Of a stretch of 64,000 nt of DNA, positions 1,900 through 13,114 are shown piece after piece; within the stretch, counting starts at the first letter, position 1; each line of letters opens with the position of its first letter. The position numbers and the translations under genes were made by a program. The notes beneath the pieces were generated by a model. The model searched no databases. It saw nothing but the letters and a program-made list of their open reading frames with translations, and was not told the origin of the DNA. Source of the DNA: Phapecoctavirus DIJ07P2; sequence record OZ035771.1. One strand, given 5' to 3'.

Positions 1900-2161
1900 A
1901 TTTAGAGAATGACGCGCAGGGGCGGTGTTTGTCTCGCGCTCCCGTGTCCCCTCGCCATGTAATAAGAATAACAGATCCAGCCAGGAAAGCAAGCGATTAT
2001 TTTATCTTTACATTTCTTTACAAATATATAGCGCCCAGCCTACCGGCGATCAACCTTCCAACCAGCGCCCTGGTATGTTAGCCCCGCCTTTACGCCGTGG
2101 GGGTGGCGCTTCCTCTTCTGTATGTAAAACAGTATAAGCCCGATCCCTGGGCTTGTCAAGA

Positions 2162-2428
2162 TTATTTTTTGTTTTCTTGCCAGGTTAGGACACCTAGCCA
2201 AAAATGAATATCACCTTTTCCCCAATGTGGTATATTGCTTTCTTTCCCACCTTCACGCGCCCAGGTAAAACCGCCCGTGTAACTTTGTAATTGATAACTA
2301 TCCTCGACCTTATAATCTGATAGGTTGAGAACTGTTTCAACCTTTAAGCCCGTTGCGCTTGCTACCTGGTGCACCGTGCCGCCTTGCCAGCCCAATGAGT
2401 GCATAAGGTGTAATGTAGTATTTGTCAT
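2162..2428 (-). CDS. hypothetical protein in GC-rich island
   Basis: 88-aa minus ORF with AAGGG RBS-like sequence; local GC content visibly higher than surroundings. Confidence 0.35.
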   Translation of the reverse strand: MTNTTLHLMHSLGWQGGTVHQVASATGLKVETVLNLSDYKVEDSYQLQSYTGGFTWAREGGKESNIPHWGKGDIHFWLGVLTWQENKK

Positions 2429-2537
2429 GGTGTCGCCCTTTCTTTGTTGTGCGCCCTGGTTGGCGCGGTAGAAAGATGATAGCCCTTTCCTTTATATATA
2501 GCAAGCAAAAAGAAAATAAAAAAGATTGAAAAAGTGA

Positions 2538-2595
2538 TTGACGTTCGCCAGGTGGCGGCATAATATTTACCACGTAGGGCGGCAATGGTGCCGCT
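2538..2595 (+). promoter_or_regulatory. early promoter / 5' hairpin cassette 1
   Basis: -35 TTGACG 2538, 17-nt spacer, -10 TAATAT 2561, CACGTAGGGCGG box, stem GCGGC/GCCGC 2578-2595. Confidence 0.6.
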
Positions 2596-2615
2596 CATTA
2601 TTTGGAATTAAGATC

Positions 2616-2813
2616 ATGGCAACATTGCACATTGTGGCGAAAGCTGGACAAATCAACGTAGTAGTAAACGGTTTTACTGAGTTCAGTCATCCCCAGGATG
2701 ATCATGAAACGGTTTTATCTTTCATTGATTCACTGTTAGAAATGGGAGTCATTACAGAAGACCAGCACGCTACAAAATGCAAACGCGTTAATCAGATTGC
2801 AGGAATAGAATAA
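2616..2813 (+). CDS. hypothetical small protein (65 aa)
   Basis: track ORF 2538..2813 trimmed to ATG 2616 downstream of the cassette. Confidence 0.55.
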   Translation: MATLHIVAKAGQINVVVNGFTEFSHPQDDHETVLSFIDSLLEMGVITEDQHATKCKRVNQIAGIE

Positions 2814-2819
2814 AAAGTA

Positions 2820-2878
2820 TTGACAACAACCAACAACCTGATAAGATGTATCACATAAGGCGGGAAATGGTTTCCCGC
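2820..2878 (+). promoter_or_regulatory. early promoter / 5' hairpin cassette 2
   Basis: -35 TTGACA 2820, -10 TAAGAT 2842, CACATAAGGCGGG box, stem GCGGGA/TCCCGC 2860-2878. Confidence 0.6.
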
Positions 2879-2902
2879 TCACAACAGAAGAGAGAAATCA
2901 TC

Positions 2903-3175
2903 ATGGCATCATATAGCGCAACAATGATCGTAGCTGGTACCACTGGTAAACCTATGAGCGGTGGCGGATCTTTCGCTAATATTAATATTGATGGGCGTTT
3001 ATCCCTGGACGCAGCGATCACCGTGGCGCGGGAAACATTTAAGAAAGAATGTGATTTCAACAAGCAAGATTATTTAGGTTTTGCTATTGAAAAAACGGCG
3101 CGTTTTGTTGATTATAAAAGTCCGAAAATGGTTGATACTACACTAAAAGCGCAAGATGTAGCCTTTTTGCTTTAA
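2903..3175 (+). CDS. hypothetical small protein (90 aa)
   Basis: ATG 2903 after conserved ACAACAGAAGAGAGAAATCATC leader; track ORF 2846..3175 trimmed. Confidence 0.6.
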   Translation: MASYSATMIVAGTTGKPMSGGGSFANINIDGRLSLDAAITVARETFKKECDFNKQDYLGFAIEKTARFVDYKSPKMVDTTLKAQDVAFLL

Positions 3176-3178
3176 GGC

Positions 3179-3233
3179 TTGACATTAACGAATAATTTGT
3201 TAATATGTTACATAAAGCGGGAACTATTCCCGC
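3179..3233 (+). promoter_or_regulatory. early promoter / 5' hairpin cassette 3
   Basis: -35 TTGACA 3179, -10 TAATAT 3201, stem GCGGGA/TCCCGC 3217-3233. Confidence 0.55.
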
Positions 3234-3251
3234 TATTTGTAAGGTGGTAGA

Positions 3252-3509
3252 ATGTTTTACATCAAATTAAAAGGTCACGTGATCGCGTTCAAGGATAACG
3301 CTTTTTACAGATTAGCAAAATATGCGTTAATACATCCCCATTATGTTTATATAAGGGGGCGTGATGAAATAAATATCTTTGATCAAACAACATGCGAGAA
3401 CATCGAGATCCGCAAGGTTGGCGTACGTGACTATCGTACATCTTTCTACCCTTGCAAGGATTCAGCAAGTCTTTTTAAAGTATGCCAATTGTTGAAAAAA
3501 GGTGGTTAA
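3252..3509 (+). CDS. hypothetical protein (85 aa)
   Basis: track ORF; GGTGG RBS. Confidence 0.6.
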   Translation: MFYIKLKGHVIAFKDNAFYRLAKYALIHPHYVYIRGRDEINIFDQTTCENIEIRKVGVRDYRTSFYPCKDSASLFKVCQLLKKGG

Positions 3510-3510
3510 T

Positions 3511-4068
3511 ATGGGCCGCGAATATGTGATCCAGTCTTGGGTAAAACATGAAGCAGATGATCCGCGCATCATTCCTGATTATCTTGTCGATGAATCCACG
3601 GGCTATAGCGGGGAGCAAATAGGTAACAGATTAGCACGTAGTAACGGCAACGTAAAAGCGCGTTATGTGCGCCCTGGCTGGCTGGCAAATGGTAACGCTG
3701 ATTTATCCAGTGCGGAAGATGCGAGCGACGGCGCGAAAGATAATCCTTTGTACAAAGTTGATCCGGCTTTTCGTGTCCTGGATGAATACCCCAGCAAGAT
3801 AGCGGCGCTCGATCAGGCCCTGGAAAGTAAGCGCATCACCTGGACCGCTTACAACATGGCAAAAAACGTACTTGATGGTAAATTGATTCAAGCTGAAAGA
3901 AAATTAGCCAAAATTGCAGCCATAGCCCAGGAGGAAGACGAGGAGACAACGGAAGAGGAAGAGTACGAAGAGATCCCGCCGTTGTTGTGTGTTGATGCTT
4001 TTCCTGATTATCAGCCGACAGAGGAAGAAAAAAGGATCGCACTAGAAAACTTTGAAAATAGTCTTTGA
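3511..4068 (+). CDS. hypothetical protein with acidic C-terminus (185 aa)
   Basis: track ORF 3502..4068 trimmed to ATG 3511 (AAGGTGG 5 nt upstream); C-terminal EEDEETTEEEEYEE. Confidence 0.55.
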   Translation: MGREYVIQSWVKHEADDPRIIPDYLVDESTGYSGEQIGNRLARSNGNVKARYVRPGWLANGNADLSSAEDASDGAKDNPLYKVDPAFRVLDEYPSKIAALDQALESKRITWTAYNMAKNVLDGKLIQAERKLAKIAAIAQEEDEETTEEEEYEEIPPLLCVDAFPDYQPTEEEKRIALENFENSL

Positions 4069-4122
4069 CATATCGCCGCCACTGGCATAATATTTACCAC
4101 GTAGGGCGGCAATGGTGCCGCT
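4065..4122 (+). promoter_or_regulatory. early promoter / 5' hairpin cassette 4
   Basis: -35 TTGACA 4065 overlapping previous stop, -10 TAATAT 4088, stem GCGGC/GCCGC. Confidence 0.6.
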
Positions 4123-4150
4123 CATAGTGAAATTATGCAAGAGGCTTACA

Positions 4151-4246
4151 ATGATTAATAAAGGAAATAGCTTGACGGTTGGAACGATTAACGCTATCAT
4201 TCTCGCCGTTCCATTTTGGGTTGTAGTAGCGGCTATTATTTTCTAA
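4151..4246 (+). CDS. hydrophobic micro-protein (31 aa, single TM helix)
   Basis: ATG 4151 after AGAGG; MINKGNSLTVGTINAIILAVPFWVVVAAIIF; below 60-aa track cutoff. Confidence 0.45.
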   Translation: MINKGNSLTVGTINAIILAVPFWVVVAAIIF

Positions 4247-4255
4247 AAAATATTC

Positions 4256-4316
4256 TTGACAACGTTTTTTAATCTGATAAGATGTATCACATAGGGCGGC
4301 GGAATACTTCCCCGCC
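4256..4316 (+). promoter_or_regulatory. early promoter / 5' hairpin cassette 5
   Basis: -35 TTGACA 4256, -10 TAAGAT 4278, stem GGCGGCGG/CCCCGCC. Confidence 0.6.
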
Positions 4317-4337
4317 AAAACAAAAAAGGGTAACACA

Positions 4338-4700
4338 ATGAGCAAGCAAATCAATACTATCATGTTTAATCTGGTATCTTTCCGCGATGATATGAAAAAT
4401 TTACCACGTGAAACGGTTGATATTCATGTTTCAGCTTATCGCGCCCTTATTGACATGTTACCGCTAAAACGTGATCAACATGCCGCTAATATGATGCTTA
4501 ATGCTATGCTTAAAAAGATGATTCAAACGGATCTCACCCTGGCATATGAGTATCAAGGGCGCTTATATGCAAATTACAACAGAGCGGTACCTGGTCTGGG
4601 AAGTACTGAAGAGTTGCACGGCTTAAACCTGGATCAAAACACTTGGGATAGTATGCGCCGCGTTATGGTATGGGCCGAAAGCGGTAAAATTTACGAATAA
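4338..4700 (+). CDS. hypothetical protein (120 aa)
   Basis: track ORF directly downstream of cassette 5. Confidence 0.6.
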   Translation: MSKQINTIMFNLVSFRDDMKNLPRETVDIHVSAYRALIDMLPLKRDQHAANMMLNAMLKKMIQTDLTLAYEYQGRLYANYNRAVPGLGSTEELHGLNLDQNTWDSMRRVMVWAESGKIYE

Positions 4701-4706
4701 AAACGG

Positions 4707-4763
4707 TTGACACTGTTTTTTATTCTGGTATAGTTTATCACGTAGGGCGGCAATGGTGCCGCC
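4707..4763 (+). promoter_or_regulatory. early promoter / 5' hairpin cassette 6
   Basis: -35 TTGACA 4707, -10 TATAGT 4729, stem GCGGC/GCCGC. Confidence 0.6.
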
Positions 4764-4783
4764 AACAATAAAAGGTTAACATC

Positions 4784-4963
4784 ATGACCATCATTGCAAA
4801 AACTGAGATTATAGGTTTAGATTCGATCCTCCTGGCTTATGAGGAAACTTTAAAAATGTATGTAGTGACCTATGGTGATTATGTGCGTGAATACGAATAC
4901 ATTGATCTTGCTTTCGAATGTTACATTCGCCAGGTCAATAAAGCCTATAACGATTATCGTTAA
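4784..4963 (+). CDS. hypothetical micro-protein (59 aa)
   Basis: ATG 4784 after AAAGG; 60 codons; below track cutoff. Confidence 0.5.
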   Translation: MTIIAKTEIIGLDSILLAYEETLKMYVVTYGDYVREYEYIDLAFECYIRQVNKAYNDYR

Positions 4964-4982
4964 AAGTTTTAGTCTTATACTA

Positions 4983-5034
4983 TTGACAATGAGTGATAGT
5001 ATAAGCATAATAACTTTTATCGGGAATACTTCCC
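4983..5034 (+). promoter_or_regulatory. early promoter / weak hairpin cassette 7
   Basis: -35 TTGACA 4983; short stem GGGAA/TTCCC 5021-5034. Confidence 0.45.
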
Positions 5035-5059
5035 ACTAACCAAAAAAGAGAGTAATATC

Positions 5060-5425
5060 ATGGCTATTAATATCAATGTTTCCTCTTATGCTACCCTGGC
5101 TGACACGGCTAAAATTGAATTATCCAGCATTGAGGCGGTGCATATTAGCGCCCGTCGTTGGTTTCAACAGTCCTACGGTAACACATATTTTTCTTTAATG
5201 GTTGACGTTGAGATCGGCGGTAAACTGATCGAGGTGGTTAACGTTCCGTTTCAATATGGTTATGGTGATCATTTTGATACCGTCGCCCTGGAAGAATTTA
5301 GCAAGGTTATTAATATGGAAGGTAAAGAGTTTTCACGCGGCGCGTATCTTTCCCGTTTTTGCCGTGATAATGGGATCACTGTATACAGTCATGCGAGCGA
5401 TGTTAAACGTAAAAAAGATTTATAA
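5060..5425 (+). CDS. hypothetical protein (121 aa)
   Basis: track ORF; conserved leader and ATG-GCT start. Confidence 0.6.
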   Translation: MAININVSSYATLADTAKIELSSIEAVHISARRWFQQSYGNTYFSLMVDVEIGGKLIEVVNVPFQYGYGDHFDTVALEEFSKVINMEGKEFSRGAYLSRFCRDNGITVYSHASDVKRKKDL

Positions 5426-5431
5426 AAAGCA

Positions 5432-5490
5432 TTGACAGCACGAATAAAAAGAGTAAACTGTATTACATAGAGAGCGGGAACACTTCCCGC
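5432..5490 (+). promoter_or_regulatory. early promoter / 5' hairpin cassette 8
   Basis: -35 TTGACA 5432, -10 TAAACT ~5455, stem GCGGGAA/TTCCCGC. Confidence 0.55.
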
Positions 5491-5515
5491 CTCACTGAAA
5501 AAAGAGATTAACATC

Positions 5516-5755
5516 ATGGCTAAATCAAAAATGTTCTTAGGTCACAAAAATAAAACTCATTGGAATGTAAGCCTTTGGATTAATAACGATGAATCGTTAT
5601 ATCGGTTGGCGAAAGAATTTATCGCCGCTAATACTAATCGTAATGATGCTGCCCGTGATATGATGTTATTCCTGGAACAAACTGGACAAGATAAAACTCC
5701 AGACGGTTTCAAGTATAGCACTACAGCGATCCGCGCCGCGATGGTTGGAATGTAA
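5516..5755 (+). CDS. hypothetical protein (79 aa)
   Basis: track ORF. Confidence 0.6.
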   Translation: MAKSKMFLGHKNKTHWNVSLWINNDESLYRLAKEFIAANTNRNDAARDMMLFLEQTGQDKTPDGFKYSTTAIRAAMVGM

Positions 5756-5768
5756 AGGAGATATAAAA

Positions 5769-5849
5769 ATGAAACATCGTTCTACCTATCTAACAAAACG
5801 TTTTAGCTTAGATCATAAATTGGGCTATTACGGAAGAAATAGAAAATAA
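5769..5849 (+). CDS. possible micro-ORF (26 aa)
   Basis: ATG 5769 with strong AAGGAG 7 nt upstream. Confidence 0.3.
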   Translation: MKHRSTYLTKRFSLDHKLGYYGRNRK

Positions 5850-5850
5850 T

Positions 5851-5910
5851 TTGACAACGTTTAAAATTAGTGTAAGATGTATCACATAGGGCGGGAAGTG
5901 GTTTCCCGCC
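5851..5910 (+). promoter_or_regulatory. early promoter / 5' hairpin cassette 9
   Basis: -35 TTGACA 5851, -10 TAAGAT 5873, stem GCGGGAA/TTCCCGC. Confidence 0.6.
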
Positions 5911-5932
5911 AACAACAGAGAGATTAAAGATT

Positions 5933-6160
5933 ATGGCTATCAATATTGTTCGCGTATCCGGCACCGTTGGCACTTCCCAAGTTATTGCAGTTGTAACAAA
6001 CAAAAAGATTAATGATGTATGTGAAAGCTTGAATAAGTGGGCTATTGTTAATTTTGGGGAATATGCAAGCGTCGAGTACATCGAATCCTACCAGGTGCCA
6101 ACCATCAGCCTAACCGATCTCAACGTTGATCGCTTGTTGTGCCTGGATGAATTAATCTGA
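5933..6160 (+). CDS. hypothetical protein (75 aa)
   Basis: track ORF. Confidence 0.6.
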   Translation: MAINIVRVSGTVGTSQVIAVVTNKKINDVCESLNKWAIVNFGEYASVEYIESYQVPTISLTDLNVDRLLCLDELI

Positions 6161-6170
6161 AAAAAGATTG

Positions 6171-6227
6171 TTGACACCGGAAAGAAAAAGAGTAGAATAT
6201 ATTACATAGGGCGGCAATGGTGCCGCT
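6171..6227 (+). promoter_or_regulatory. early promoter / 5' hairpin cassette 10
   Basis: -35 TTGACA 6171, -10 TAGAAT 6194, stem GCGGC/GCCGC. Confidence 0.6.
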
Positions 6228-6251
6228 CACAACAGAAGAGAGATTATCACG

Positions 6252-6467
6252 ATGGCTAATATCCGCACTTTACTGAAAAATGCAAGTCAAGTTTTATTTT
6301 CAGATGATGAGTATTTCAATAAAGACATTACAGGCGTGAAAAATTTAAAAGACGTGAAGGATGTTATCGGTATTCGTGGATCTTTACGTAAAGGTGACTA
6401 CTATGGTAACAAGGTGCAATATAAACTGTCAAAGGATTACAATTTTACTTTGACAATTATTTCATAA
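6252..6467 (+). CDS. hypothetical protein (71 aa)
   Basis: track ORF. Confidence 0.6.
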   Translation: MANIRTLLKNASQVLFSDDEYFNKDITGVKNLKDVKDVIGIRGSLRKGDYYGNKVQYKLSKDYNFTLTIIS

Positions 6468-6473
6468 AACCGC

Positions 6474-6536
6474 TTGCAATACTGCAAAAATAAAGTAAAC
6501 TGTATTCATCAAGGCGGTGGAATAGCCAACCGCCTA
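6474..6536 (+). promoter_or_regulatory. early promoter / 5' hairpin cassette 11
   Basis: -35 TTGCAA 6474, -10 TAAACT ~6497, stem AGGCGGT/ACCGCCT. Confidence 0.5.
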
Positions 6537-6558
6537 ACAAAGAGAAGAGGAAAACATC

Positions 6559-6726
6559 ATGATCACTTTCGCTACCCGTGAAGCCGCTCGCAACGTTGCA
6601 CGTAAAGTTAACGCCGCCAACCTGGGCGCTACGCTTAAAGCTCCGGTAAAAGATGAATCAGGCAAATGGATCTTCCCTGGTCTGCGTCATGCTGACAAGT
6701 TAGGTACTTTAAGCCTTAAAAAATAA
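6559..6726 (+). CDS. hypothetical basic micro-protein (55 aa)
   Basis: ATG 6559 after AGAGGAAAAC leader; below track cutoff. Confidence 0.5.
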   Translation: MITFATREAARNVARKVNAANLGATLKAPVKDESGKWIFPGLRHADKLGTLSLKK

Positions 6727-6729
6727 TCG

Positions 6730-6766
6730 TTGACTTTTCGTTATAGCGCCTTACAATGGGCGCTAT
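6730..6766 (+). promoter_or_regulatory. early promoter / hairpin cassette 12 (-10 inside the loop)
   Basis: -35 TTGACT 6730, -10 TACAAT 6752 lying in the loop of stem TAGCGCC/GGCGCTA. Confidence 0.45.
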
Positions 6767-6801
6767 AGAGAAGAGAAACCACTACTAACAAGGAAACCAT
6801 T

Positions 6802-7023
6802 ATGATCACTTTCGCTATTGTCGCCGTTGTTGCTGGTCAAGTTTACGTAAATGAGACATTTACTACAGAAGACAAGGCAGCAGGAGATATAACCGCCGTT
6901 TACAATGAGTGCAAGGCAGTAGAAAGGATGTTAGCGCCTTGTATGCTAATGAGTGAACGCCAGGACGGAATAACAGTATTTACTAACATTGGAACAGGGT
7001 ACCAAATGGTAGTAACAAAATAA
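6802..7023 (+). CDS. hypothetical protein (73 aa)
   Basis: track ORF. Confidence 0.55.
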   Translation: MITFAIVAVVAGQVYVNETFTTEDKAAGDITAVYNECKAVERMLAPCMLMSERQDGITVFTNIGTGYQMVVTK

Positions 7024-7026
7024 AGC

Positions 7027-7083
7027 TTGACACCGATTTAATTTTTAGTAAACTGTTACACGTAGGGCGGGAATAGTTCCCGC
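7027..7083 (+). promoter_or_regulatory. early promoter / 5' hairpin cassette 13
   Basis: -35 TTGACA 7027, -10 TAAACT 7049, stem GCGGGA/TCCCGC 7067-7083. Confidence 0.6.
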
Positions 7084-7102
7084 TCAAAAAGAGAGAAAGA
7101 TC

Positions 7103-7456
7103 ATGAAAGCACAAAATGCAATTAAAGAGTACATCCTTGCCGCTATCGGTTTTAATGATTACGGTATTACAACAGAAAAAGAGAAGATCGCGGAATTGAT
7201 GCGCCGTTTTAATTCCGAGTACTGGTACCCTGATAACCAATCACGTTTTAATTATAGTATTGTTAAAGCACTTGCATCATGGTTACAAGGTTTGCCATCA
7301 GATATTAATATCGCTTTCGAATATTGGGAAGTGGATCGCTTGTTAACATCCTGGGGATACATTAAAGAGAATAGCAGCGATGATAAAATCCAACGAGAAA
7401 GGGAAAATTATTGGCTTTATATTGCAGGCGTGATCCTTGCTTGCTCTTATGAATGA
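7103..7456 (+). CDS. hypothetical protein (117 aa)
   Basis: track ORF. Confidence 0.6.
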   Translation: MKAQNAIKEYILAAIGFNDYGITTEKEKIAELMRRFNSEYWYPDNQSRFNYSIVKALASWLQGLPSDINIAFEYWEVDRLLTSWGYIKENSSDDKIQRERENYWLYIAGVILACSYE

Positions 7457-7462
7457 TAAACC

Positions 7463-7516
7463 TTGACAATTTTACAAAACAGTTTAAATTAACAATATAG
7501 CGGCAATGGTGCCGCT
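7463..7516 (+). promoter_or_regulatory. early promoter / 5' hairpin cassette 14
   Basis: -35 TTGACA 7463; stem AGCGGC/GCCGCT 7499-7516. Confidence 0.5.
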
Positions 7517-7535
7517 CATATAAAGAGGAAACAAA

Positions 7536-7682
7536 ATGAATACATCTAATCGCGCAGAAAAAATTCAATCTTCCAAGATCCGCAAGGCCTGGAACGAGGA
7601 AGTGATCCGCAAAGGCGACAAGCGTAATAAAACAAAGCGCGGGAAGAGTGACAAATATAATTGGATGGATTTAGAGGATTAA
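7536..7682 (+). CDS. basic micro-protein (48 aa)
   Basis: ATG 7536 after AAGAGGAAAC; lysine/arginine-rich; below track cutoff. Confidence 0.5.
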   Translation: MNTSNRAEKIQSSKIRKAWNEEVIRKGDKRNKTKRGKSDKYNWMDLED

Positions 7683-7688
7683 CATAAC

Positions 7689-7716
7689 AAGGGCGCACCA
7701 AGCGCCCTTTCTTTTT
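7689..7716 (+). terminator. rho-independent terminator (conserved hairpin type, copy 1)
   Basis: AAGGGCGCACCAAGCGCCCTT followed by TCTTTTT. Confidence 0.6.
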
Positions 7717-7737
7717 ATATGCAGAGGATAAACAAAG

Positions 7738-7923
7738 ATGACTTTAAACGAGCTTAAAACAGCCTACAACGCAACATTAAAAATAGCCGTGCGTTACCGT
7801 GATGCGTATGGTTTTATCGCGCAGGGCGTGATCCTGGGCTTTTCTGACGATGGTTTGATCTATGTTGATGCACATCACAACAAGGTTAAACCTGAAAACG
7901 TCATTAATATAAAATATCTTTAA
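7738..7923 (+). CDS. hypothetical protein (61 aa)
   Basis: track ORF; AGAGGA RBS. Confidence 0.5.
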   Translation: MTLNELKTAYNATLKIAVRYRDAYGFIAQGVILGFSDDGLIYVDAHHNKVKPENVINIKYL

Positions 7924-7929
7924 AAATGG

Positions 7930-7988
7930 TTGACACCATAACCGGACCTGTTAAACTGTATTACATCAGGCGGGGAATAGTTCCCCAC
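7930..7988 (+). promoter_or_regulatory. early promoter / 5' hairpin cassette 15
   Basis: -35 TTGACA 7930, -10 TAAACT 7952, stem GGGG/CCCC. Confidence 0.5.
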
Positions 7989-8008
7989 CATACAAAAAGG
8001 TAAATATT

Positions 8009-8215
8009 ATGATCACCGCAAAACAAGAAAAAATCATTATCGACGTTGCAGCCGTTGCCGCTATCGCTATTATTGGATCTTATTATGATACCCGTTTCCC
8101 GTCGGCTATGCATGAGGTCGCCGCCGTTGCATCAGTTGGCGTACTGTTTTACGTTGGTAAACGCTATTTATCACCAATGATTAACAAGCTGACACCGTGG
8201 AAAAATAAAGGTTGA
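8009..8215 (+). CDS. small membrane protein (68 aa)
   Basis: track ORF; hydrophobic stretches. Confidence 0.55.
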   Translation: MITAKQEKIIIDVAAVAAIAIIGSYYDTRFPSAMHEVAAVASVGVLFYVGKRYLSPMINKLTPWKNKG

Positions 8216-8266
8216 TCCTGTTTTACATTATGTTATAGTTATCGTGTAGGGCGGCAATGGTGCCGC
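8212..8266 (+). promoter_or_regulatory. early promoter / 5' hairpin cassette 16
   Basis: -35 TTGATC 8212, -10 TATAGT 8234, stem GGCGGC/GCCGC. Confidence 0.5.
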
Positions 8267-8286
8267 GCCCCTTTGAGGATGCAATC

Positions 8287-8571
8287 ATGAGTAAAGCTAA
8301 CACCGTGCTAATGTTTTCCCTGATTAATGATCTCGCTTACTTGTCCAACATGACGCAGGAGGGTAACACATTAACGGCAACATTCACCAATAAGCTTGAC
8401 CGAGTGATCATCGTCTCACTGAAAACAGTTAGTAAAGGCTTTTACTTGTTAGCTTATCATTGTATCACTGATACCGATGAGACAAGCCAGGACTATAGCG
8501 CCCCTTTCCCTGAATCAATGGCACGGGAGATCATCGCCGCCGTTGTAAATGATGGTTTGTTTACTGCATAA
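8287..8571 (+). CDS. hypothetical protein (94 aa)
   Basis: track ORF 8257..8571 trimmed to ATG 8287. Confidence 0.55.
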   Translation: MSKANTVLMFSLINDLAYLSNMTQEGNTLTATFTNKLDRVIIVSLKTVSKGFYLLAYHCITDTDETSQDYSAPFPESMAREIIAAVVNDGLFTA

Positions 8572-8589
8572 AATAATTTAGAAAAAGGC

Positions 8590-8646
8590 TTGCAATCATT
8601 TTGAGATAGTGTATATTTAATTCATAGGGCGGCGGGAATAGTTCCC
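8590..8646 (+). promoter_or_regulatory. early promoter / 5' hairpin cassette 17
   Basis: -35 TTGCAA 8590, -10 TATATT 8612, stem GGGAA/TTCCC. Confidence 0.45.
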
Positions 8647-8669
8647 AAAGCAAACGAGAGGATTACACG

Positions 8670-8789
8670 ATGAGCAAGTACACAGTAGAATACACGGTAG
8701 AGAATCCGGCAGTATCCGAAGGTAAAAAGATGACATTTACCATCAGTATAATCGCTTTCGTTGTCACTATCTTATCAATCATCTTATAA
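8670..8789 (+). CDS. hydrophobic micro-protein (39 aa)
   Basis: ATG 8670 after GAGAGG; C-terminal TM segment; below track cutoff. Confidence 0.45.
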   Translation: MSKYTVEYTVENPAVSEGKKMTFTISIIAFVVTILSIIL

Positions 8790-8799
8790 GGTGCACACC

Positions 8800-8961
8800 A
8801 TGAAAACAACAGATATTATCAAAGAGATCGCCCTTGCCGCTGGCGTTGAGATCGAGGAAGTGATCGCGCTCAATCTTACAGAAAACGATCTGCGCAACTA
8901 TGAAGCGGAAAGCGTGAAAGCAAGTGGCGCGGTCCTGGCATATAATCCGGCTAACAAATAG
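8800..8961 (+). CDS. hypothetical micro-protein (53 aa)
   Basis: track ORF 8761..8961 trimmed to ATG 8800. Confidence 0.45.
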   Translation: MKTTDIIKEIALAAGVEIEEVIALNLTENDLRNYEAESVKASGAVLAYNPANK

Positions 8962-8962
8962 T

Positions 8963-9017
8963 TTGACAAGCTGAATCAACCTGATAAGATGTATCACATA
9001 GGGGCGACAAGCGCCCC
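8963..9017 (+). promoter_or_regulatory. early promoter / 5' hairpin cassette 18
   Basis: -35 TTGACA 8963, -10 TAAGAT 8985, stem GGGGCG/CGCCCC. Confidence 0.6.
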
Positions 9018-9038
9018 GCCTAACAGAGAGATAGAATC

Positions 9039-9317
9039 ATGACCATCGCCAAATTATCCGCCGAAGAAATCGAACAAGTGCTAACTACTAACCTGGAACA
9101 ATGGAAACGTGAGGCAGATATACAATCAGCACAATGGCTTAACGAGAAGTTAACACCGGATGATCTGAGTAAGATTATAGATCCTCAATTCTACGAAGAT
9201 ATTCACGACACCGTTTTAAGCGTCGAGGATGTACTTGATAAGCATTATATTGCTACTGATTTGCAGGTTTACGGGCGTAAAAACTTTATTACTATTCACG
9301 ACATTTACAATAACTAA
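9039..9317 (+). CDS. hypothetical protein (92 aa)
   Basis: track ORF. Confidence 0.6.
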   Translation: MTIAKLSAEEIEQVLTTNLEQWKREADIQSAQWLNEKLTPDDLSKIIDPQFYEDIHDTVLSVEDVLDKHYIATDLQVYGRKNFITIHDIYNN

Positions 9318-9325
9318 GGGATAAC

Positions 9326-9454
9326 ATGAATCCGAAAGATATGCAAGCATGGAAAGGGTACGACGATCTAAGCGCCTTGCGCAATAAGTCAAGCCGTAAC
9401 CTTAGACGGTTAGAAGCAAAGAAAAAGAAAAAACAGTTTGACAAGTCCGCTTAA
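9326..9454 (+). CDS. basic micro-protein (42 aa)
   Basis: ATG 9326 after TAAGGGATAAC; end overlaps next promoter; below track cutoff. Confidence 0.4.
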   Translation: MNPKDMQAWKGYDDLSALRNKSSRNLRRLEAKKKKKQFDKSA

Positions 9455-9494
9455 TCTGGTAAAGTGTATCTCGTAGGGCGGCAATGATGCCGCT
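9438..9494 (+). promoter_or_regulatory. early promoter / 5' hairpin cassette 19
   Basis: -35 TTGACA 9438, -10 TAAAGT 9460, stem GGCGGC/GCCGC (loop AATGAT). Confidence 0.55.
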
Positions 9495-9514
9495 CACAAG
9501 AAGAGAGAAAAATC

Positions 9515-9799
9515 ATGAAGATCACAAAAAGCCTAACTAATTATGCAGCACGTCGCGGATTATGCTTAACCGTTGAAAACTCAGGGAAAGAAGACTTTTT
9601 GTGTTTTTGGGAGCTTGAAAATGATTGCGAGTGGATGTTTTCTTATTCTATCTGCGAAGATCAAAACGGTTGTTTGTTAACCTGGCGCGGTAATATCTAT
9701 TTACCGGAAGAAATTAAAGAAGAGTTACCAGGTACGATCATGACAGAGAGACAGCTTAAGGAAGTGATCAATTTTGTAGGGCAAAACATTAAAAAATAA
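9515..9799 (+). CDS. hypothetical protein (94 aa)
   Basis: track ORF. Confidence 0.6.
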   Translation: MKITKSLTNYAARRGLCLTVENSGKEDFLCFWELENDCEWMFSYSICEDQNGCLLTWRGNIYLPEEIKEELPGTIMTERQLKEVINFVGQNIKK

Positions 9800-9800
9800 T

Positions 9801-9862
9801 TTGACAGCACGCAAACAACGTAGTAAAGTTTACCACATAGGGCGGCGGAATGGTCCACCGCT
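9801..9862 (+). promoter_or_regulatory. early promoter / 5' hairpin cassette 20
   Basis: -35 TTGACA 9801; CACATAGGGCGG box; GC stem ~9841-9862. Confidence 0.55.
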
Positions 9863-9884
9863 CACAACAGAAGAGAAACAAATC

Positions 9885-10055
9885 ATGATCCCGACTATGT
9901 TTTATGTATCGCGCAAAGGTCACAATATTTTTTGGTCTGAAGATTTAAATGAAGCCATGACGTTTGCCCGTGATCGTGTTGCTATCGGTGGCGTTAACAT
10001 CACCGTAACCGATGAAAATGGCATTGAATACTATAACGGCGACGATGAAGAGTAA
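9885..10055 (+). CDS. hypothetical micro-protein (56 aa)
   Basis: track ORF 9801..10055 trimmed to ATG 9885. Confidence 0.5.
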   Translation: MIPTMFYVSRKGHNIFWSEDLNEAMTFARDRVAIGGVNITVTDENGIEYYNGDDEE

Positions 10056-10062
10056 TTAATAA

Positions 10063-10082
10063 GGCGGGGAATACTTCCCGCC
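10063..10082 (+). other. orphan GC hairpin of the cassette type, no promoter
   Basis: GGCGGGGAATACTTCCCGCC directly after a stop codon with no -35/-10 upstream. Confidence 0.5.
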
Positions 10083-10121
10083 ACGCAGTGAATTTTCCGT
10101 TTGGGAAGTAAAAAATAAATC

Positions 10122-10182
10122 TTGACGATAATTTGTTATCTGATAGAATGTATTTCGTAGGGCGGGGCAATAAGGCAAGCCC
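10122..10182 (+). promoter_or_regulatory. early promoter / 5' hairpin cassette 21
   Basis: -35 TTGACG 10122, -10 TAGAAT 10144, TCGTAGGGCGG box. Confidence 0.55.
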
Positions 10183-10199
10183 ACAAAGAGGAAAATAAA

Positions 10200-10568
10200 A
10201 TGAGCAAATCAGCAATTAAAGCACTTGAAAAAGCACAAGAAGTGATCGCAACGTCAACCACTGGCGCAAAGGTTAATCTCGTTTGTTATCTGACAGATGA
10301 AACTATCCGTAAAAATTGGCGTAATGCTGATTTACTGGCTTGCTTATTGATTAATAGTGTCGCTAATGCTTTCCAGTGTGAAACAGCCGAGAGCCTGGAG
10401 GAAAACTTGTTTGATAATATGGATCAAGCCATTGAAACCTATATACAATCAAACCTGGATAGCTGGAACAGTAAAACATGGCCCGACAATTTACGCGATA
10501 CAACTGATCAACTGATCCGCCTTGCCCTGATGGTTGAACGCGATAACGTTTACAACAGCACAAAGTAA
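10200..10568 (+). CDS. hypothetical protein (122 aa)
   Basis: track ORF. Confidence 0.6.
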   Translation: MSKSAIKALEKAQEVIATSTTGAKVNLVCYLTDETIRKNWRNADLLACLLINSVANAFQCETAESLEENLFDNMDQAIETYIQSNLDSWNSKTWPDNLRDTTDQLIRLALMVERDNVYNSTK

Positions 10569-10576
10569 GATTATAC

Positions 10577-10598
10577 AAGGGCGCACTAAGCGCCCTTT
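10577..10598 (+). terminator. terminator-like hairpin (conserved type, copy 2)
   Basis: AAGGGCGCACTAAGCGCCCTT; weak T-tract. Confidence 0.4.
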
Positions 10599-10632
10599 AA
10601 CGTAAAGAAATGTAAATAATGCGCTATCCCTA

Positions 10633-10668
10633 TTGACAGGGGATCGGCGTTATATTATATTTAACTTA
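10633..10668 (+). promoter_or_regulatory. sigma70-like promoter without hairpin
   Basis: TTGACA 10633, 17-nt spacer, TATATT. Confidence 0.45.
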
Positions 10669-10706
10669 CTGGCAGCAAACAACGAAACGAAACAAAGGAC
10701 AACATC

Positions 10707-11126
10707 ATGAACATTAAATCAAATAATCCAGCTTACTCCTTCGATAACGCTTTTTGTCACGGTAGCGCCGCCAAAGGCTTCGAAATCGATGGTAAATTGG
10801 TTATCGTGAACGTTGACGGGGAAGAGGTTGCAGTGTATCCGGTAAACGATGTTAAAAGCCGTTTACAATGCCGCATGGATGTTACCGCATATCAGCTTGA
10901 TCCGGTCCGTGTAGTTGCCCTGGTATTAGAGGAAGAGATCAAAGCAATGCATCACAGTAATAAGTTTATTGGTGACGCGCAGGATAATATGAACGTTTGC
11001 CGCCATAAAGTTAATGAAGCATTGAAAGAATGCGGTTTTAAGGATCTGATGATTAAACGTGATGAAAAATTCCGCTTTCGTAATGACCTGGCAAACCGGA
11101 TCTACTCAATCTATGAAGCTTTATAA
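10707..11126 (+). CDS. hypothetical protein (139 aa)
   Basis: track ORF. Confidence 0.6.
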   Translation: MNIKSNNPAYSFDNAFCHGSAAKGFEIDGKLVIVNVDGEEVAVYPVNDVKSRLQCRMDVTAYQLDPVRVVALVLEEEIKAMHHSNKFIGDAQDNMNVCRHKVNEALKECGFKDLMIKRDEKFRFRNDLANRIYSIYEAL

Positions 11127-11139
11127 TCGACAACAAAAC

Positions 11140-11169
11140 AAGGGGCGCACAAAGCGCCCTTTCTTTTTG
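11140..11169 (+). terminator. rho-independent terminator (conserved type, copy 3)
   Basis: AAGGGGCGCACAAAGCGCCCTT followed by TCTTTTTG. Confidence 0.6.
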
Positions 11170-11199
11170 CCCGAACAATGTTGATAGCTTTCGCCTATG

Positions 11200-11680
11200 A
11201 AAAACCGACACAGAACAAAACTGAATAAATCGCGGTATCGAGCTAATCAACCAGCAAACGAATAACCATACCTCCCAGGGTTACAGGCTGTTAGAGAGCC
11301 ATTTAGAGCGGTTAAAATCGATCAACAACCAACAACAAACCATCAAAAACACCCTTTTACCTCCTTTCTAGTGCAATGATAACCATTATCATCTACCCAT
11401 GATTATCTATGCAATATAAGCGCATAATTATAATGTTGATAATAGTTCGCAACAACTAACCAACAAACAACATAAAACAATAAGCAAACTAATCATAATC
11501 AAAGGAATAATAGCAAGATGATTGATAACGACAAACAATCGAACCATGATGAATACTAAGCAAGATAACGATAACACGACAAAACAACCAACTAACGAAC
11601 AATAACAAACGAAACCATTAAAATAATAACTATTAGCAAAATAGTGCCTGAATGAAATCATTACAAAACGAATCATTCAC
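11200..11680. repeat. A+C-rich, strand-asymmetric low-complexity tract
   Basis: plus strand dominated by CAA/ACA/AAC repeats with very few G; no credible ORF. Confidence 0.5.
11372..11390. promoter_or_regulatory. Fur-box-like 19-mer
   Basis: TGCAATGATAACCATTATC; 3' 15 nt match Fur consensus at 14/15. Confidence 0.35.
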
Positions 11681-11699
11681 AGAGTCATCATTAGCACGC

Positions 11700-12060
11700 T
11701 ATGCCGGACACATAGCGAGCTAATAATAAGCCAACTACACCCCAACAATCATAACCATCGGTGACGGTTATTTCTTGTTACTGCGTAGCTTGCAATAATT
11801 GCAAGCGTAATGACGCTTACACTTATTGCGCTGGCTTATTATTAGCATTATATGTAATTACCAAGATCATAACATTAGCGCAATAACAATAGTCATTGTA
11901 ATAATTACATGAGTTATCACTATCGTTCAGTGTGATCATCATTAGCACAGTGAATAATTGCACGTAGCAACATGAGCGAATAGCGACAGGTTGCATAGTG
12001 TGCACATAGTGTATAAACATACAAGAAAATAAAGGCTAATCTTTTGGGGGCGAATACTAT
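11700..12060. repeat. cluster of palindromes and inverted repeats
   Basis: GCTAATAATAAGCC (11718) / GGCTTATTATTAGC (11838); CTTGCAAT-A-ATTGCAAG; AGCGT-AATG-ACGCT; ACAAT-AGTC-ATTGT; ATAGTGT direct repeat. Confidence 0.5.
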
Positions 12061-12150
12061 CGCGTAGCGATATGTTGAGCACCTTCTCTTAAACGTAAAT
12101 AAAATCAGAAAATTCTTGATTTATTTTAGTTTTTATGTTAATAAACGTTT

Positions 12151-12169
12151 AAATAATAATCATTCTCAT
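12151..12169. promoter_or_regulatory. Fur-box-like 19-mer
   Basis: AAATAATAATCATTCTCAT, 14/19 to Fur consensus. Confidence 0.3.
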
Positions 12170-12328
12170 ATAAATAATAGTCTGCTTGTCATGAGCGGGA
12201 TTAGTTGACAATGTTCCGTCATATGATGAAGTTGCCAAGCCATTGATAAATAAGTGTTTGTGTGATTTATAATCAGGTGGCCCACCTTGTCGCTATGTTG
12301 GCATGAGCCTTGCATAAGTCATTGAATA

Positions 12329-13065: not shown

Positions 13066-13114
13066 AGATGTTTGTATAATGGATGACATAACAGATAGCC
13101 AATGAGGAGATGAA

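What the first reader, a model, noticed from the sequence alone, without database searches (positions are those of the whole stretch)
2538..10182. At least 20 copies of a promoter / conserved box / covarying 5' hairpin / RBS cassette
Roughly every 200-400 bp the same module recurs: -35 TTGACA, 16-17 nt spacer, a -10 (TAAGAT, TAATAT, TATAGT or TAAACT), then the conserved box (T)AYCACRTAGGGCGG leading into a GC hairpin placed about +5 to +25 from the predicted start, then a conserved ACAACAGAAGAGAGAAATCATC-like leader and ATG-GCN. The stems differ in sequence but stay paired (GGCGGC/GCCGC, GCGGGA/TCCCGC, GGGGCG/CGCCCC, AGGCGGT/ACCGCCT), which is compensatory covariation and argues for a selected structure. 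This resembles the promoter-early stem-loop (PeSL) cassettes described for T4-type phages, but here it is far denser and carries an extra conserved box. Plausible roles are 5'-end mRNA stabilisation, a recognition site for a phage or host factor, or a mobile regulatory cassette.
Basis: partly seen in the sequence, partly recalled or inferred. Interest (0 to 1): 0.8.

Follow-up and report, generated by a model that had tools for sequence, protein, structure and literature searches.

The report
Shuffling promoter–hairpin cassettes in a coliphage
A 7.7-kb stretch of this phAPEC8-like coliphage carries 21 copies of a ready-made "strong promoter, small RNA hairpin, ribosome-binding leader" unit, one per small unknown gene. 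Related phages have swapped genes and hairpins at these units, much like the PeSL cassettes of T4-type phages but with the hairpin inside the transcript.

Summary
Between 2538 and 10202 there are 21 near-consensus sigma-70 promoters, all on the + strand and each in front of a small ORFan. Nineteen are followed by a GC stem-loop and an unpaired A-rich leader. The box CRTAGGGCGG occurs 13 times against 1.6 expected. A covariance model finds copies only in this stretch of the 64-kb window, and only in one 10.6-kb stretch of a 150-kb relative.

The window is a Phapecoctavirus. The same architecture occurs in Justusliebigvirus and, with a diverged box, in Vequintavirus.

Comparison with six close relatives shows that 21 of 25 indel or replacement breakpoints fall inside cassettes. 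It also shows chimeric cassettes, and different hairpins behind the same promoter and gene. This is the PeSL ("promoter-early stem-loop") behaviour of T4-type phages.

The geometry differs from PeSLs. Here the stem starts 10–11 nt after the -10, at about +4 of the RNA, and lacks a U-tract. In RB49 it mostly lies inside the promoter spacer.

Covariation is real but thin: two or three variable pairs, plus whole-hairpin replacements.

Verdict: a new variant of a known kind. The recombination role is well supported. The RNA-level role (a 5'-proximal stabilising structure rather than a terminator) is inferred.

The parts
2538..2618 (+). Cassette 1: -35 TTGACG, 17 nt, TAATAT; hairpin 2577-2596; ATG 2616
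   Evidence: (z -3.3)
2820..2905 (+). Cassette 2: TTGACA-16-TAAGAT; hairpin 2858-2880; ATG 2903
   Evidence: Five different hairpins sit at this gene across 7 phages
3179..3254 (+). Cassette 3: TTGACA-16-TAATAT; hairpin 3215-3235 (loop inverted relative to relatives); ATG 3252
4065..4153 (+). Cassette 4: TTGACA-17-TAATAT; hairpin 4104-4123; ATG 4151
4256..4340 (+). Cassette 5: TTGACA-16-TAAGAT; hairpin 4294-4317; ATG 4338
4707..4786 (+). Cassette 6: TTGACA-16-TATAGT; hairpin 4745-4764; ATG 4784
   Evidence: Crossover partner in the ECO340P2 deletion
4983..5062 (+). Cassette 7 (variant, no box): TTGACA-17-CATAAT; short hairpin 5022-5034; ATG 5060
   Evidence: Replaced by a cassette-6-type unit in L005/L006
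5432..5518 (+). Cassette 8: TTGACA-16-TAAACT; hairpin 5472-5492 (extendable 5468-5495); ATG 5516
   Evidence: z -4.5
5851..5935 (+). Cassette 9: TTGACA-16-TAAGAT; hairpin 5889-5911; ATG 5933
   Evidence: Three hairpin variants among relatives
6171..6254 (+). Cassette 10: TTGACA-16-TAGAAT; hairpin 6209-6228; ATG 6252
   Evidence: Left half of the chimeric cassette in nepoznato
6474..6561 (+). Cassette 11: TTGCAA-16-TAAACT; hairpin 6512-6535; ATG 6559
   Evidence: z -4.0. Right half of the chimeric cassette in nepoznato
6730..6804 (+). Cassette 12 (variant): TTGACT-16-TACAAT with hairpin 6742-6767 spanning the -10 (RB49-PeSL-like geometry); UTR unstructured; ATG 6802
7027..7105 (+). Cassette 13: TTGACA-16-TAAACT; hairpin 7065-7085; ATG 7103. 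The whole cassette is absent in nepoznato
   Evidence: (z -5.2)
7463..7538 (+). Cassette 14: TTGACA-16-TAAATT; hairpin 7498-7517; ATG 7536
7930..8011 (+). Cassette 15: TTGACA-16-TAAACT; hairpin 7968-7990; ATG 8009
8212..8289 (+). Cassette 16: TTGATC-16-TATAGT; hairpin 8249-8268; ATG 8287
8590..8672 (+). Cassette 17 (partly degenerate): TTGCAA-16-TATATT; box intact, inner hairpin 8634-8646 only; ATG 8670
8963..9041 (+). Cassette 18: TTGACA-16-TAAGAT; unrelated hairpin GGGGCG/CGCCCC 9001-9017; ATG 9039. The unit 'cassette + gene 9039-9317' is absent in three relatives
9438..9517 (+). Cassette 19: TTGACA-16-TAAAGT; hairpin 9476-9495; ATG 9515
   Evidence: z -4.1
9801..9887 (+). Cassette 20: TTGACA-17-TAAAGT; hairpin 9840-9863; ATG 9885
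   Evidence: z -4.3
10063..10082 (+). Promoter-less hairpin just after the stop codon of gene 9885-10055. Synteny with relatives breaks inside it. In four relatives the same site holds a hairpin + leader + RBS with no promoter
   Evidence: R2 hit 10052-10091
10122..10202 (+). Cassette 21: TTGACG-16-TAGAAT; box intact, weak/degenerate hairpin 10160-10182; ATG 10200
7689..7709 (.). Canonical bidirectional intrinsic terminator inside the array (context: what a real terminator looks like here)
   Evidence: 7 T in the 8 nt after the stem
10577..10598 (+). Terminator-like hairpin. Left partner of the terminator-to-terminator recombination that removes promoter 10633 + gene 10707-11126 in nepoznato
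11140..11162 (+). Canonical terminator, right partner of the same event

Best explanation
These are modular early-gene expression cassettes of the PeSL type, in a phage lineage where they have not been described (Stephanstirmvirinae, with relatives in Vequintavirinae).

Each unit supplies four things to one small ORFan gene:
- a strong host sigma-70 promoter with an A-rich upstream region
- a start-site context C-R-T-A
- a transcribed GC stem-loop beginning about 3-5 nt from the predicted 5' end
- an unpaired A-rich leader with the ribosome-binding site

Because about 20 near-identical units lie in tandem, they act as substrates for homologous recombination and gene conversion. These events delete, insert and replace genes, and swap the hairpin module between cassettes. 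This part is shown by comparative sequence evidence.

The hairpin itself most likely works at the RNA level as a generic, sequence-independent 5'-proximal structure that limits 5'-end-dependent decay (RppH/RNase E access) of the short early mRNAs. On read-through transcripts it would give the upstream segment a structured 3' end. It is probably not a transcription terminator. This part is inferred.
For: Promoters and layout:
- 21 near-consensus promoters, one per gene, all on the coding strand.
- No RNA polymerase gene is annotated in the 150-kb relative.
- Copies are confined to one ORFan array, both in the window and in a whole related genome.

Recombination:
- 21 of 25 breakpoints against six relatives lie in cassettes, which cover 32.7% of the array (p = 1.8e-7).
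- There are chimeric cassettes, crossovers at matching offsets, and loss of a whole unit from stop codon to next RBS.
- The same promoter and gene carry 3-5 different, well-formed hairpins in different phages.

RNA-level structure:
- Stable hairpins with a free leader.
- The sense strand folds better in 15 of 19 copies, owing to G.U pairs.
- 90-95% of cells are paired against 77-88% in shuffles, and slid registers collapse.
- The stem base is fixed relative to the promoter (sd 1.1 nt), more tightly than to the ATG (sd 2.7 nt).
- The same offset (10-11 nt after the -10) holds in three genera even where the box has diverged.
- There is a conserved pyrimidine at predicted +2, where RppH prefers a purine (PMC8833179).

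Not a terminator:
- A mean of 1.1 T in the 8 nt after the stem, against 7, 4 and 7 for the array's own terminators.
Against: - No transcription start site, half-life or termination data exist for this phage group (literature).
- With R as +1, about 3 nt are unpaired. RppH and RNase E already work with 2 and prefer 3 or more, so protection would be partial.
- RNase E scanning readily bypasses a simple stem-loop (PMC9943677), which weakens an internal-barrier role.
- Some promoters in the same genomes work without any hairpin (c6730, 10633, 14488; many in EmilHeitz).
- A promoter-less copy exists, so 5'-end protection of primary transcripts cannot be the only role.
- All intergenic DNA in the array is cassette. 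Enrichment of breakpoints there is therefore partly what purifying selection on ORFs alone would give.
- Covariation rests on few independent events.
Confidence: 0.55

Rival explanations
1. The stem-loop is a transcription attenuator or terminator for read-through from upstream promoters, as proposed and reporter-tested for RB49 PeSLs. It would insulate each ORFan unit.
For: A PeSL stem-loop reduced lacZ expression like rrnB T1 in RB49 (PMC2839356). The hairpins are GC-rich and stable. One copy (2577-2596) passes a terminator-like scan. A promoter-less copy sits right after a stop codon.
Against: Nineteen of 20 hairpins lack a T-run (mean 1.1 T in 8 nt), while the array's real terminators have 7, 4 and 7. 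The hairpin lies inside the cassette's own transcript, so an efficient terminator would kill its own promoter's output. In RB49 the stem-loop mostly lies in the promoter spacer, with the -10 acting as the U-rich tail; that geometry is absent here except in c6730.
Confidence: 0.15
2. The element acts only at the DNA level. The palindrome would be a recombination or template-switch hot spot (or a structure-specific recombination site) that keeps the ORFan array plastic. The RNA hairpin would be a by-product.
For: Breakpoints fall in and next to hairpins, including the orphan one. Hairpins are swapped between cassettes. There is an exact loop inversion at c3179. An RB49 mini-circle crossover was mapped to a stem-loop loop.
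Against: Crossovers occur at many offsets (-10 region, box, leader, ATG). That pattern fits homology-driven exchange rather than site-specific exchange. The stem has a fixed distance to the promoter in three genera. G.U asymmetry favours the sense strand. No recombinase is associated with the array.
Confidence: 0.12
3. The box plus hairpin is a recognition site for a phage or host factor. It could be an operator overlapping +1 that shuts off early promoters, or an RNA tag bound by a regulator or nuclease that coordinately controls the early ORFan mRNAs.
For: C-R-T-A-GGGCGG is much more conserved (1-2 bits) than the promoter spacer (0.1-0.5 bits) among paralogs. It overlaps the predicted start, where operators often lie. 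About 20 genes would be co-regulated.
Against: The box decays in Vequintavirus while the hairpin persists. Loops and inner stems are freely interchangeable, which argues against sequence-specific recognition. C-R is what a start site needs, and GGGCGG is half of the stem. No candidate factor was identified: the T4 Srd search was negative and there is no Rfam match.
Confidence: 0.13
4. The hairpin has no function. It is a passenger of a cassette that spreads by duplication and gene conversion.
For: The core stem is sequence-invariant among detectable copies. Some copies are degenerate (c4983, c8590, c10122), and single stem-breaking substitutions occur in relatives.
Against: Unrelated hairpins occupy the same position (GGGGCG/CGCCCC here; GGGGGGCAACAAGCCCCACC and others in EmilHeitz). 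Compensatory C-G/G-C and G.U/G-C/A-U changes occur. The structure is retained across three genera.
Confidence: 0.05

Closest known systems
PeSL (promoter-early stem-loop) cassettes of T4-type phages RB49/phi1, T4/PST, KVP40/nt-1 (Arbiol et al. 2010, PMC2839356; Comeau et al. 2014, PMC4122927)
   Same: A/T-rich region with the upstream stop codon, a near-consensus sigma-70 promoter, a GC stem-loop, and SD plus start codon. The cassettes cluster in an ORFan-rich hyperplastic region. Indels and replacements between close relatives break at the cassettes, and chimeric cassettes occur.
   Different: The phage lineage is different (Stephanstirmvirinae/Vequintavirinae, not Straboviridae) and the sequences are unrelated. 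The stem-loop has one fixed position, about +4 to +25 of the cassette's own transcript. PeSL stem-loops lie upstream of or at the start site, mostly in the promoter spacer. There is no U-rich tail, so a terminator role is unlikely. The hairpin module is itself exchanged between cassettes.
5'-terminal stabilising stem-loops of E. coli mRNAs (ompA, papA; Emory 1992, Bouvet & Belasco 1992, Arnold 1998, as cited in PMC3997798). From memory, also the 5' stem-loop of the T7 gene 10 leader used in pET vectors
   Same: A stable hairpin close to the 5' end followed by an unstructured leader and RBS. The sequence is interchangeable provided a stem forms.
   Different: The start site is only predicted. 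About 3-5 nt would be unpaired, which is borderline for blocking RppH/RNase E. There are no half-life data. A promoter-less intercistronic copy exists.
Intrinsic (Rho-independent) terminators
   Same: GC-rich hairpin of 6-9 bp in intergenic DNA.
   Different: No T-run in 19 of 20 copies. The hairpin is located downstream of the cassette's own promoter. Canonical terminators with a different stem (GGGCGC...GCGCCC + T-run) are used in the same array.
Integron attC / gene-cassette arrays (structural analogy only; from established knowledge)
   Same: A tandem array of small genes separated by imperfect palindromes whose structure is better conserved than their sequence. Gene content varies between close relatives.
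   Different: Each unit here has its own promoter. No integrase is present. Crossover points are spread over the whole cassette, as expected for homologous rather than site-specific exchange.

Membership tests
PeSL cassettes (T4-type phages) | Near-consensus sigma-70-type early promoter | tested here: met
   TTGACA (at most 1 mismatch), 16-17 nt, TAnnnT in 21 copies; many score 10-11 of 12. Activity not tested.
PeSL cassettes (T4-type phages) | A/T-rich region containing the upstream stop codon just 5' of the -35 | tested here: met
   An A-run is conserved upstream of the -35 (1.2-1.4 bits); stop codons lie within about 20 nt.
PeSL cassettes (T4-type phages) | Stable stem-loop inside the cassette | tested here: met
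   19 of 21 copies; dG -11 to -15 kcal/mol for most; z-scores -2.3 to -5.2.
PeSL cassettes (T4-type phages) | Stem-loop placed upstream of or at the transcription start (five subclasses: upstream of -35, over -35, in the spacer, over -10, or just before +1) | tested here: not met
   The same script was run on both phages. In RB49, hairpins lie mostly at -24..-5 relative to the end of the -10. In the window, 16 of 18 lie at +10..+33; only c6730 spans the -10.
PeSL cassettes (T4-type phages) | Shine-Dalgarno sequence and start codon at the 3' end | tested here: met
   A GAG/AGG-rich motif 6-12 nt before the ATG in all copies.
PeSL cassettes (T4-type phages) | Concentrated in hyperplastic, ORFan-rich regions | tested here: met
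   All model hits lie in one 7.7-kb (window) or 10.6-kb (tuntematon) array. Ten of 10 products have unknown function.
PeSL cassettes (T4-type phages) | Indels and replacements between close relatives break at the cassettes | tested here: met
   21 of 25 breakpoints fall in cassettes (p = 1.8e-7). Chimeric junctions were read directly. Caveat: all non-coding DNA in the array is cassette.
PeSL cassettes (T4-type phages) | Stem-loop acts as a terminator/attenuator in vivo | not testable with these tools
   The sequence argues against it: a mean of 1.1 T in the 8 nt after the stem.
PeSL cassettes (T4-type phages) | Formation of cassette mini-circles | not testable with these tools
   Needs inverse PCR on infected cells or virion DNA.
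PeSL cassettes (T4-type phages) | Sequence homology to RB49/phi1-type PeSLs | tested here: not met
   RB49 stem-loops read AGGGGATC...GATCCCCT inside the spacer. Here the stems read GGGCGG...CCGCTC after the -10. The phage family is also different.
5'-terminal stabilising stem-loop (ompA/papA type) | Hairpin within a very few unpaired nucleotides of the RNA 5' end | tested here: inconclusive
   The stem base is 10-11 nt after the -10. The predicted +1 is the conserved purine 3 nt before the stem (18 of 19 copies R, preceded by C in 15 of 19), giving about 3 unpaired nt (5 if the upstream CA is used). The start site is not mapped.
5'-terminal stabilising stem-loop (ompA/papA type) | Effect depends on structure, not sequence | tested here: inconclusive
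   Hairpins are interchangeable in front of the same gene, and stems are kept by compensatory changes. This is consistent with the feature but is not a functional test.
5'-terminal stabilising stem-loop (ompA/papA type) | Prolongs mRNA half-life in an RNase E/RppH-dependent way | not testable with these tools
   No transcriptome or decay data were found for this phage group.
Intrinsic terminator | U-tract immediately after a GC hairpin | tested here: not met
   Only 1 of 20 hairpins has at least 5 T in the next 8 nt.
Any Rfam family | Match to a curated covariance model | tested here: not met
   At gathering threshold only tRNAs match. The permissive scan of 2400-10400 gives only one chance-level miRNA hit.
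Lambda-type nut site (boxA + boxB) | boxA consensus (CGCTCTTA-like) followed by a boxB hairpin, one or two per operon | tested here: not met
   The linear box is C-R-T-A-GGGCGG with no boxA-like sequence. There are about 20 copies, one per gene. The boxA consensus is taken from established knowledge.

The most novel reading that the evidence does not exclude
The transcribed C-R-U-A box plus stem-loop is a common RNA 'address tag' read by a phage-encoded (or hijacked host) factor. That factor would coordinately control the roughly 20 early ORFan messages, for example by timed shut-off, protection from a phage-induced RNA decay programme, or translation control. Cassette exchange would then automatically enrol any newly acquired gene in the regulon.
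Probability: 0.12. Interest if true: 0.7.

Novelty: new variant of a known kind. Interest (0 to 1): 0.5.

Why it matters
- It extends PeSL-style "regulatory cassette shuffling", so far described for T4-type phages, to an unrelated group of large coliphages that is widely used in phage-therapy collections (phAPEC8-, phi92- and rV5-like). This suggests a general solution for plugging new ORFans into an early expression programme.
- The different geometry, with the hairpin transcribed and no U-tract, separates the recombination role from the terminator role originally proposed. It also gives a natural series of about 20 promoter/5'-hairpin/RBS units, with interchangeable hairpins, for testing how 5'-proximal structure affects mRNA fate during infection.
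- In practice these units are unannotated in every GenBank record examined. They mark early genes and likely hot spots of gene gain and loss.

Tried and rejected
- MAFFT alignment of the copies could not register the 3' arms. I replaced it with an N-padded hand-registered alignment and with model-fitted alignments.
- Rfam at gathering and permissive thresholds gave nothing relevant.
- Other TAGGGCGG-like sites in the window (496, 11304, 20054, 23234, 51899) are chance matches, not cassettes.
- T4 Srd-like RNase E activator as a rationale for 5' protection: the rV5 paper mentions a Srd homolog, but tblastn of T4 Srd against the window, the whole tuntematon genome, and the alia and EmilHeitz loci found nothing (best E = 3.8).
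- Resemblance of the box to the T7-class promoter core (TCAC-TATAGGG against TCAC-ATAGGG): rejected as coincidence. The box always lies 7-8 nt after a strong sigma-70 -10, and no RNA polymerase gene is annotated in the 150-kb relative.
- Site-specific (attC-like) recombination: disfavoured, because crossover points are spread from the -10 to the ATG.
- An IMG/VR scan for the promoter-proximal box returned only 6 contigs, too few for a larger unbiased hairpin sample.
- Literature searches on Phapecoctavirus, Stephanstirmvirinae and Vequintavirinae promoters and transcriptomes found only promoter/terminator counts. There was no description of this cassette and no start-site data.
- The ORF-poor stretch after the array (11.16-12.69 kb) showed no notable repeats or composition shift and was dropped.

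Full report
**What is there.**
Reading 2000-11000 directly and scanning mechanically shows 21 units on the + strand. Their -35 hexamers start at 2538, 2820, 3179, 4065, 4256, 4707, 4983, 5432, 5851, 6171, 6474, 6730, 7027, 7463, 7930, 8212, 8590, 8963, 9438, 9801 and 10122.

Each unit has, in order:
- an A-rich run
- TTGACA (at most one mismatch)
- a 16-17-nt spacer
- a TAnnnT -10, often preceded by TG
- about 10 nt ending in C-R-T-A
- a GC stem-loop
- an A-rich leader (43% A, 14% T) with a GAG/AGG-type ribosome-binding site
- the ATG of a small ORF, 72-86 nt after the -35

Nineteen units have a hairpin in the predicted 5' UTR. The rest of the leader is predicted unpaired in almost every copy. 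Fifteen of 20 UTRs are matched by at most 5 of 200 dinucleotide shuffles.

The exceptions are:
- c6730, whose hairpin (6742-6767) spans the -10
- c4983 and c8590, which have only a short inner stem
- c10122, which is degenerate

A promoter-less hairpin lies at 10063-10082, right after a stop codon.

**More than chance.**
CRTAGGGCGG (at most 1 mismatch) occurs 13 times against 1.56 +/- 1.31 expected. All 13 are on the + strand within 2573-10165. A covariance model seeded on seven copies finds 113 matches in the window plus six related loci, every one on the coding strand. The window matches all lie within 2567-10190. A broader model gives the same result and also picks up the orphan hairpin; its only other window match is one weak minus-strand hit (E = 0.9) on the palindrome at 3216-3234. 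In the complete 150-kb genome of the close relative tuntematon, all 19 matches lie in one 10.6-kb stretch on one strand.

**What genome this is.**
The region is about 95% identical to Phapecoctavirus genomes (tuntematon, Mt1B1_P17, Ro121c4YLVW and others). These are phAPEC8-like myoviruses of about 150 kb in the Stephanstirmvirinae. No record examined annotates the cassettes. The genes are all 'hypothetical', and ten products tested here match only families of unknown function. No RNA polymerase gene is annotated in the relative, which is consistent with host sigma-70 promoters.

A single cassette finds homologs across Phapecoctavirus and Justusliebigvirus, and partial matches in Vequintavirus. 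By direct scan, alia (Justusliebigvirus) has about 13 such units and EmilHeitz (Vequintavirus) has at least six. In EmilHeitz the box has diverged (ACACAAAAGGCGGG, AATCAAAGGGGGG, CTTGAAGGGGC), yet a GC hairpin remains at the same place.

**Structure and covariation.**
MAFFT could not register the 3' arms. I therefore built a hand-registered, N-padded alignment, checked each row against the window, and confirmed that the tool returned it unchanged. On it:
- 89.8% of cells pair, against 76.6 +/- 1.8 in shuffles (0 of 500 shuffles reach the observed value)
- 8 of 11 pairs show two-sided changes
- slid registers fall to 37-57%

This alignment was fitted by me, and the rows are paralogs.

On the model-fitted alignments the picture is more sober:
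- The central G-C, C-G, G-C, G-C pairs never vary.
- Real variation is at one inner pair (C-G 24 : G-C 23).
- The second outer pair varies as G.U 24 / G-C 19 / A-U 9.
- Cell-level measures exceed all shuffles, but the count of pairs with two-sided change does not.

So compensatory change exists but reflects few independent events.

Three observations add weight:
- The sense strand folds better than the antisense in 15 of 19 copies, because of G.U pairs.
- Entirely different hairpins occupy the same slot: GGGGCG/CGCCCC in c8963, and several others in EmilHeitz.
- The stem base is fixed relative to the promoter (sd 1.1 nt) more tightly than relative to the ATG (sd 2.7 nt). It lies 10-11 nt after the -10 in three genera.

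**The box.**
Anchored on the stem base, the four preceding positions are C (15/19), R (18/19; A 11, G 7), T (17/19) and A (18/19). The promoter spacer carries only 0.1-0.5 bits. A pyrimidine-purine step 7-8 nt after the -10 is where a sigma-70 start is expected (established knowledge). The RNA would therefore begin R-U-A followed by the stem.

**Recombination.**
Collinear BLAST chains of the window against six relatives give 14 non-redundant indel or replacement events. Of the 25 breakpoints inside the array, 21 fall within cassettes, which cover 32.7% of it (binomial p = 1.8e-7).

The junction sequences show the following:
- In nepoznato, gene 6252-6467 is missing. The single remaining cassette has the left half of c6171 and the right half of c6474.
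- In ECO340P2, gene 4784-4963 is missing, with the crossover in the shared CATCATG leader.
- Cassette 7027 itself is absent in nepoznato.
- The unit 'cassette 8963 + gene 9039-9317' is inserted exactly between a stop codon and the next RBS, relative to three relatives.
- The unit 'promoter 10633 + gene 10707-11126' is lost in nepoznato between two near-identical terminators, leaving a chimeric terminator.

The same gene with the same promoter also carries different hairpins in different phages. There are five variants before the gene at 2903 and three before the gene at 5933. Each variant matches the hairpin of some other cassette, so this is gene conversion of the hairpin module between the conserved box and the conserved leader.

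Two points qualify these results. Because all non-coding DNA in the array is cassette, part of the breakpoint enrichment would arise from selection against broken ORFs alone. In the other direction, the chimeric junctions and matched offsets show homology-driven exchange. The spread of crossover points, from the -10 to the ATG, argues against a site-specific mechanism.

**Comparison with PeSLs.**
Arbiol et al. 2010 (PMC2839356) and Comeau et al. 2014 (PMC4122927) define PeSLs as follows:
- an A/T-rich region, a sigma-70-like early promoter, a stem-loop, and SD/ATG
- concentration in hyperplastic ORFan regions
- mediation of modular shuffling and mini-circle formation
- five subclasses of stem-loop position, all upstream of or at the start site
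- terminator-like activity of the stem-loop in a lacZ assay

I ran the same script on RB49's hyperplastic region and on this window. In RB49 the stem-loop is mostly at -24..-5 relative to the end of the -10. That puts it in the spacer, with the -10 serving as a U-rich tail for upstream transcripts. In this window 16 of 18 hairpins are at +10..+33.

The cassette hairpins have on average 1.1 T in the following 8 nt. The array's own terminators (7689-7709, 10577-10598, 11140-11162) have 7, 4 and 7.

The element therefore behaves like a PeSL in evolution. It fails the positional feature, shows no sequence homology, and is unlikely to share the terminator function.

**How it most likely works.**
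Shown:
- The cassettes are tandem, highly similar units confined to one ORFan array.
- They are the sites where relatives differ by gene gain, loss and replacement.
- The hairpins are exchangeable modules.

Inferred:
- Each unit is an independent early transcription unit read by host RNA polymerase.
- The hairpin acts in the sense RNA near the 5' end.

The most likely RNA-level role is to limit 5'-end-dependent decay. RppH and RNase E need at least two unpaired 5' nucleotides and prefer three or more, and RppH prefers a purine at position 2 (PMC8833179). Here about 3 nt would be unpaired, with a conserved U at +2, so protection would be partial.

Two findings caution against a simple story. 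RNase E scanning bypasses simple stem-loops (PMC9943677). In four relatives a hairpin + leader + RBS sits between two genes with no promoter. This suggests a second role on polycistronic RNA, for example as a 3'-end structure after processing.

The rivals cannot be excluded without experiments. They are an attenuator, a purely DNA-level palindrome, a factor-binding site, and a passenger element. They are weighted in the rivals section.

**Novelty and verdict.**
No paper found on these phage groups describes the cassette or maps transcription starts. It is best classed as a new variant of a known kind: PeSL-like cassettes in a different phage lineage, with a transcribed, non-terminator hairpin at a fixed 5'-proximal position and with hairpin-module swapping. 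The finding is real and neat, of moderate interest to phage genomics and RNA biology, but not categorically new.

Noticed in passing
window 3219-3231 (cassette 3 hairpin): The loop and closing pairs read GGGAACTATTCCC here but GGGAATAGTTCCC in all six relatives. These are exact reverse complements, so the hairpin tip is inverted. This is the kind of change expected from template switching at a palindrome.
   Followed up: partly
window minus strand, -35 at 51953, 50976, 45490, 34498, 25068: Elsewhere in the window, promoter-like sites on the minus strand are also followed by a 5'-UTR hairpin and then a strong SD. Their sequences are unrelated to the array cassette. Two of them (25068, 50976) have a T-run, so a terminator-like hairpin sits right after a promoter.
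   Followed up: no
window 10063-10082 and L001 9262-9306, L002 9161-9205: A hairpin + leader + RBS with no promoter lies between two genes in four relatives. In the window the downstream gene has been replaced, and synteny breaks inside the hairpin.
   Followed up: partly
window 5756-5842: An 87-nt insert with a tiny ORF (5771-5848, SD AAGGAG) lies between a stop codon and cassette 5851. It is absent from five of six relatives. Its left boundary is not in a cassette.
   Followed up: no
window 10577-11162: A self-contained unit (promoter 10633 without hairpin, gene 10707-11126) is bounded by two near-identical terminators. It is missing in phage nepoznato, which has a chimeric terminator instead. 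So terminators also serve as recombination substrates.
   Followed up: yes
window about 11160-12690: An ORF-poor stretch of about 1.5 kb follows the array. Matching CDS-free gaps exist in tuntematon (4291-5891) and alia (locus 12300-14121), and the rV5 paper mentions a 'non-coding' box. No notable repeats or composition shift were seen.
   Followed up: partly
window 61424-63819: A cluster of 11 tRNA genes on the + strand.
   Followed up: no
window box, e.g. 2842-2863: The box plus -10 (TAAGATGTATCACATAGGGCGG) resembles the core of T7-class phage-polymerase promoters (TCACTATAGGG) with one base missing. No polymerase gene is annotated in the relative, so I judged this a coincidence.
   Followed up: partly
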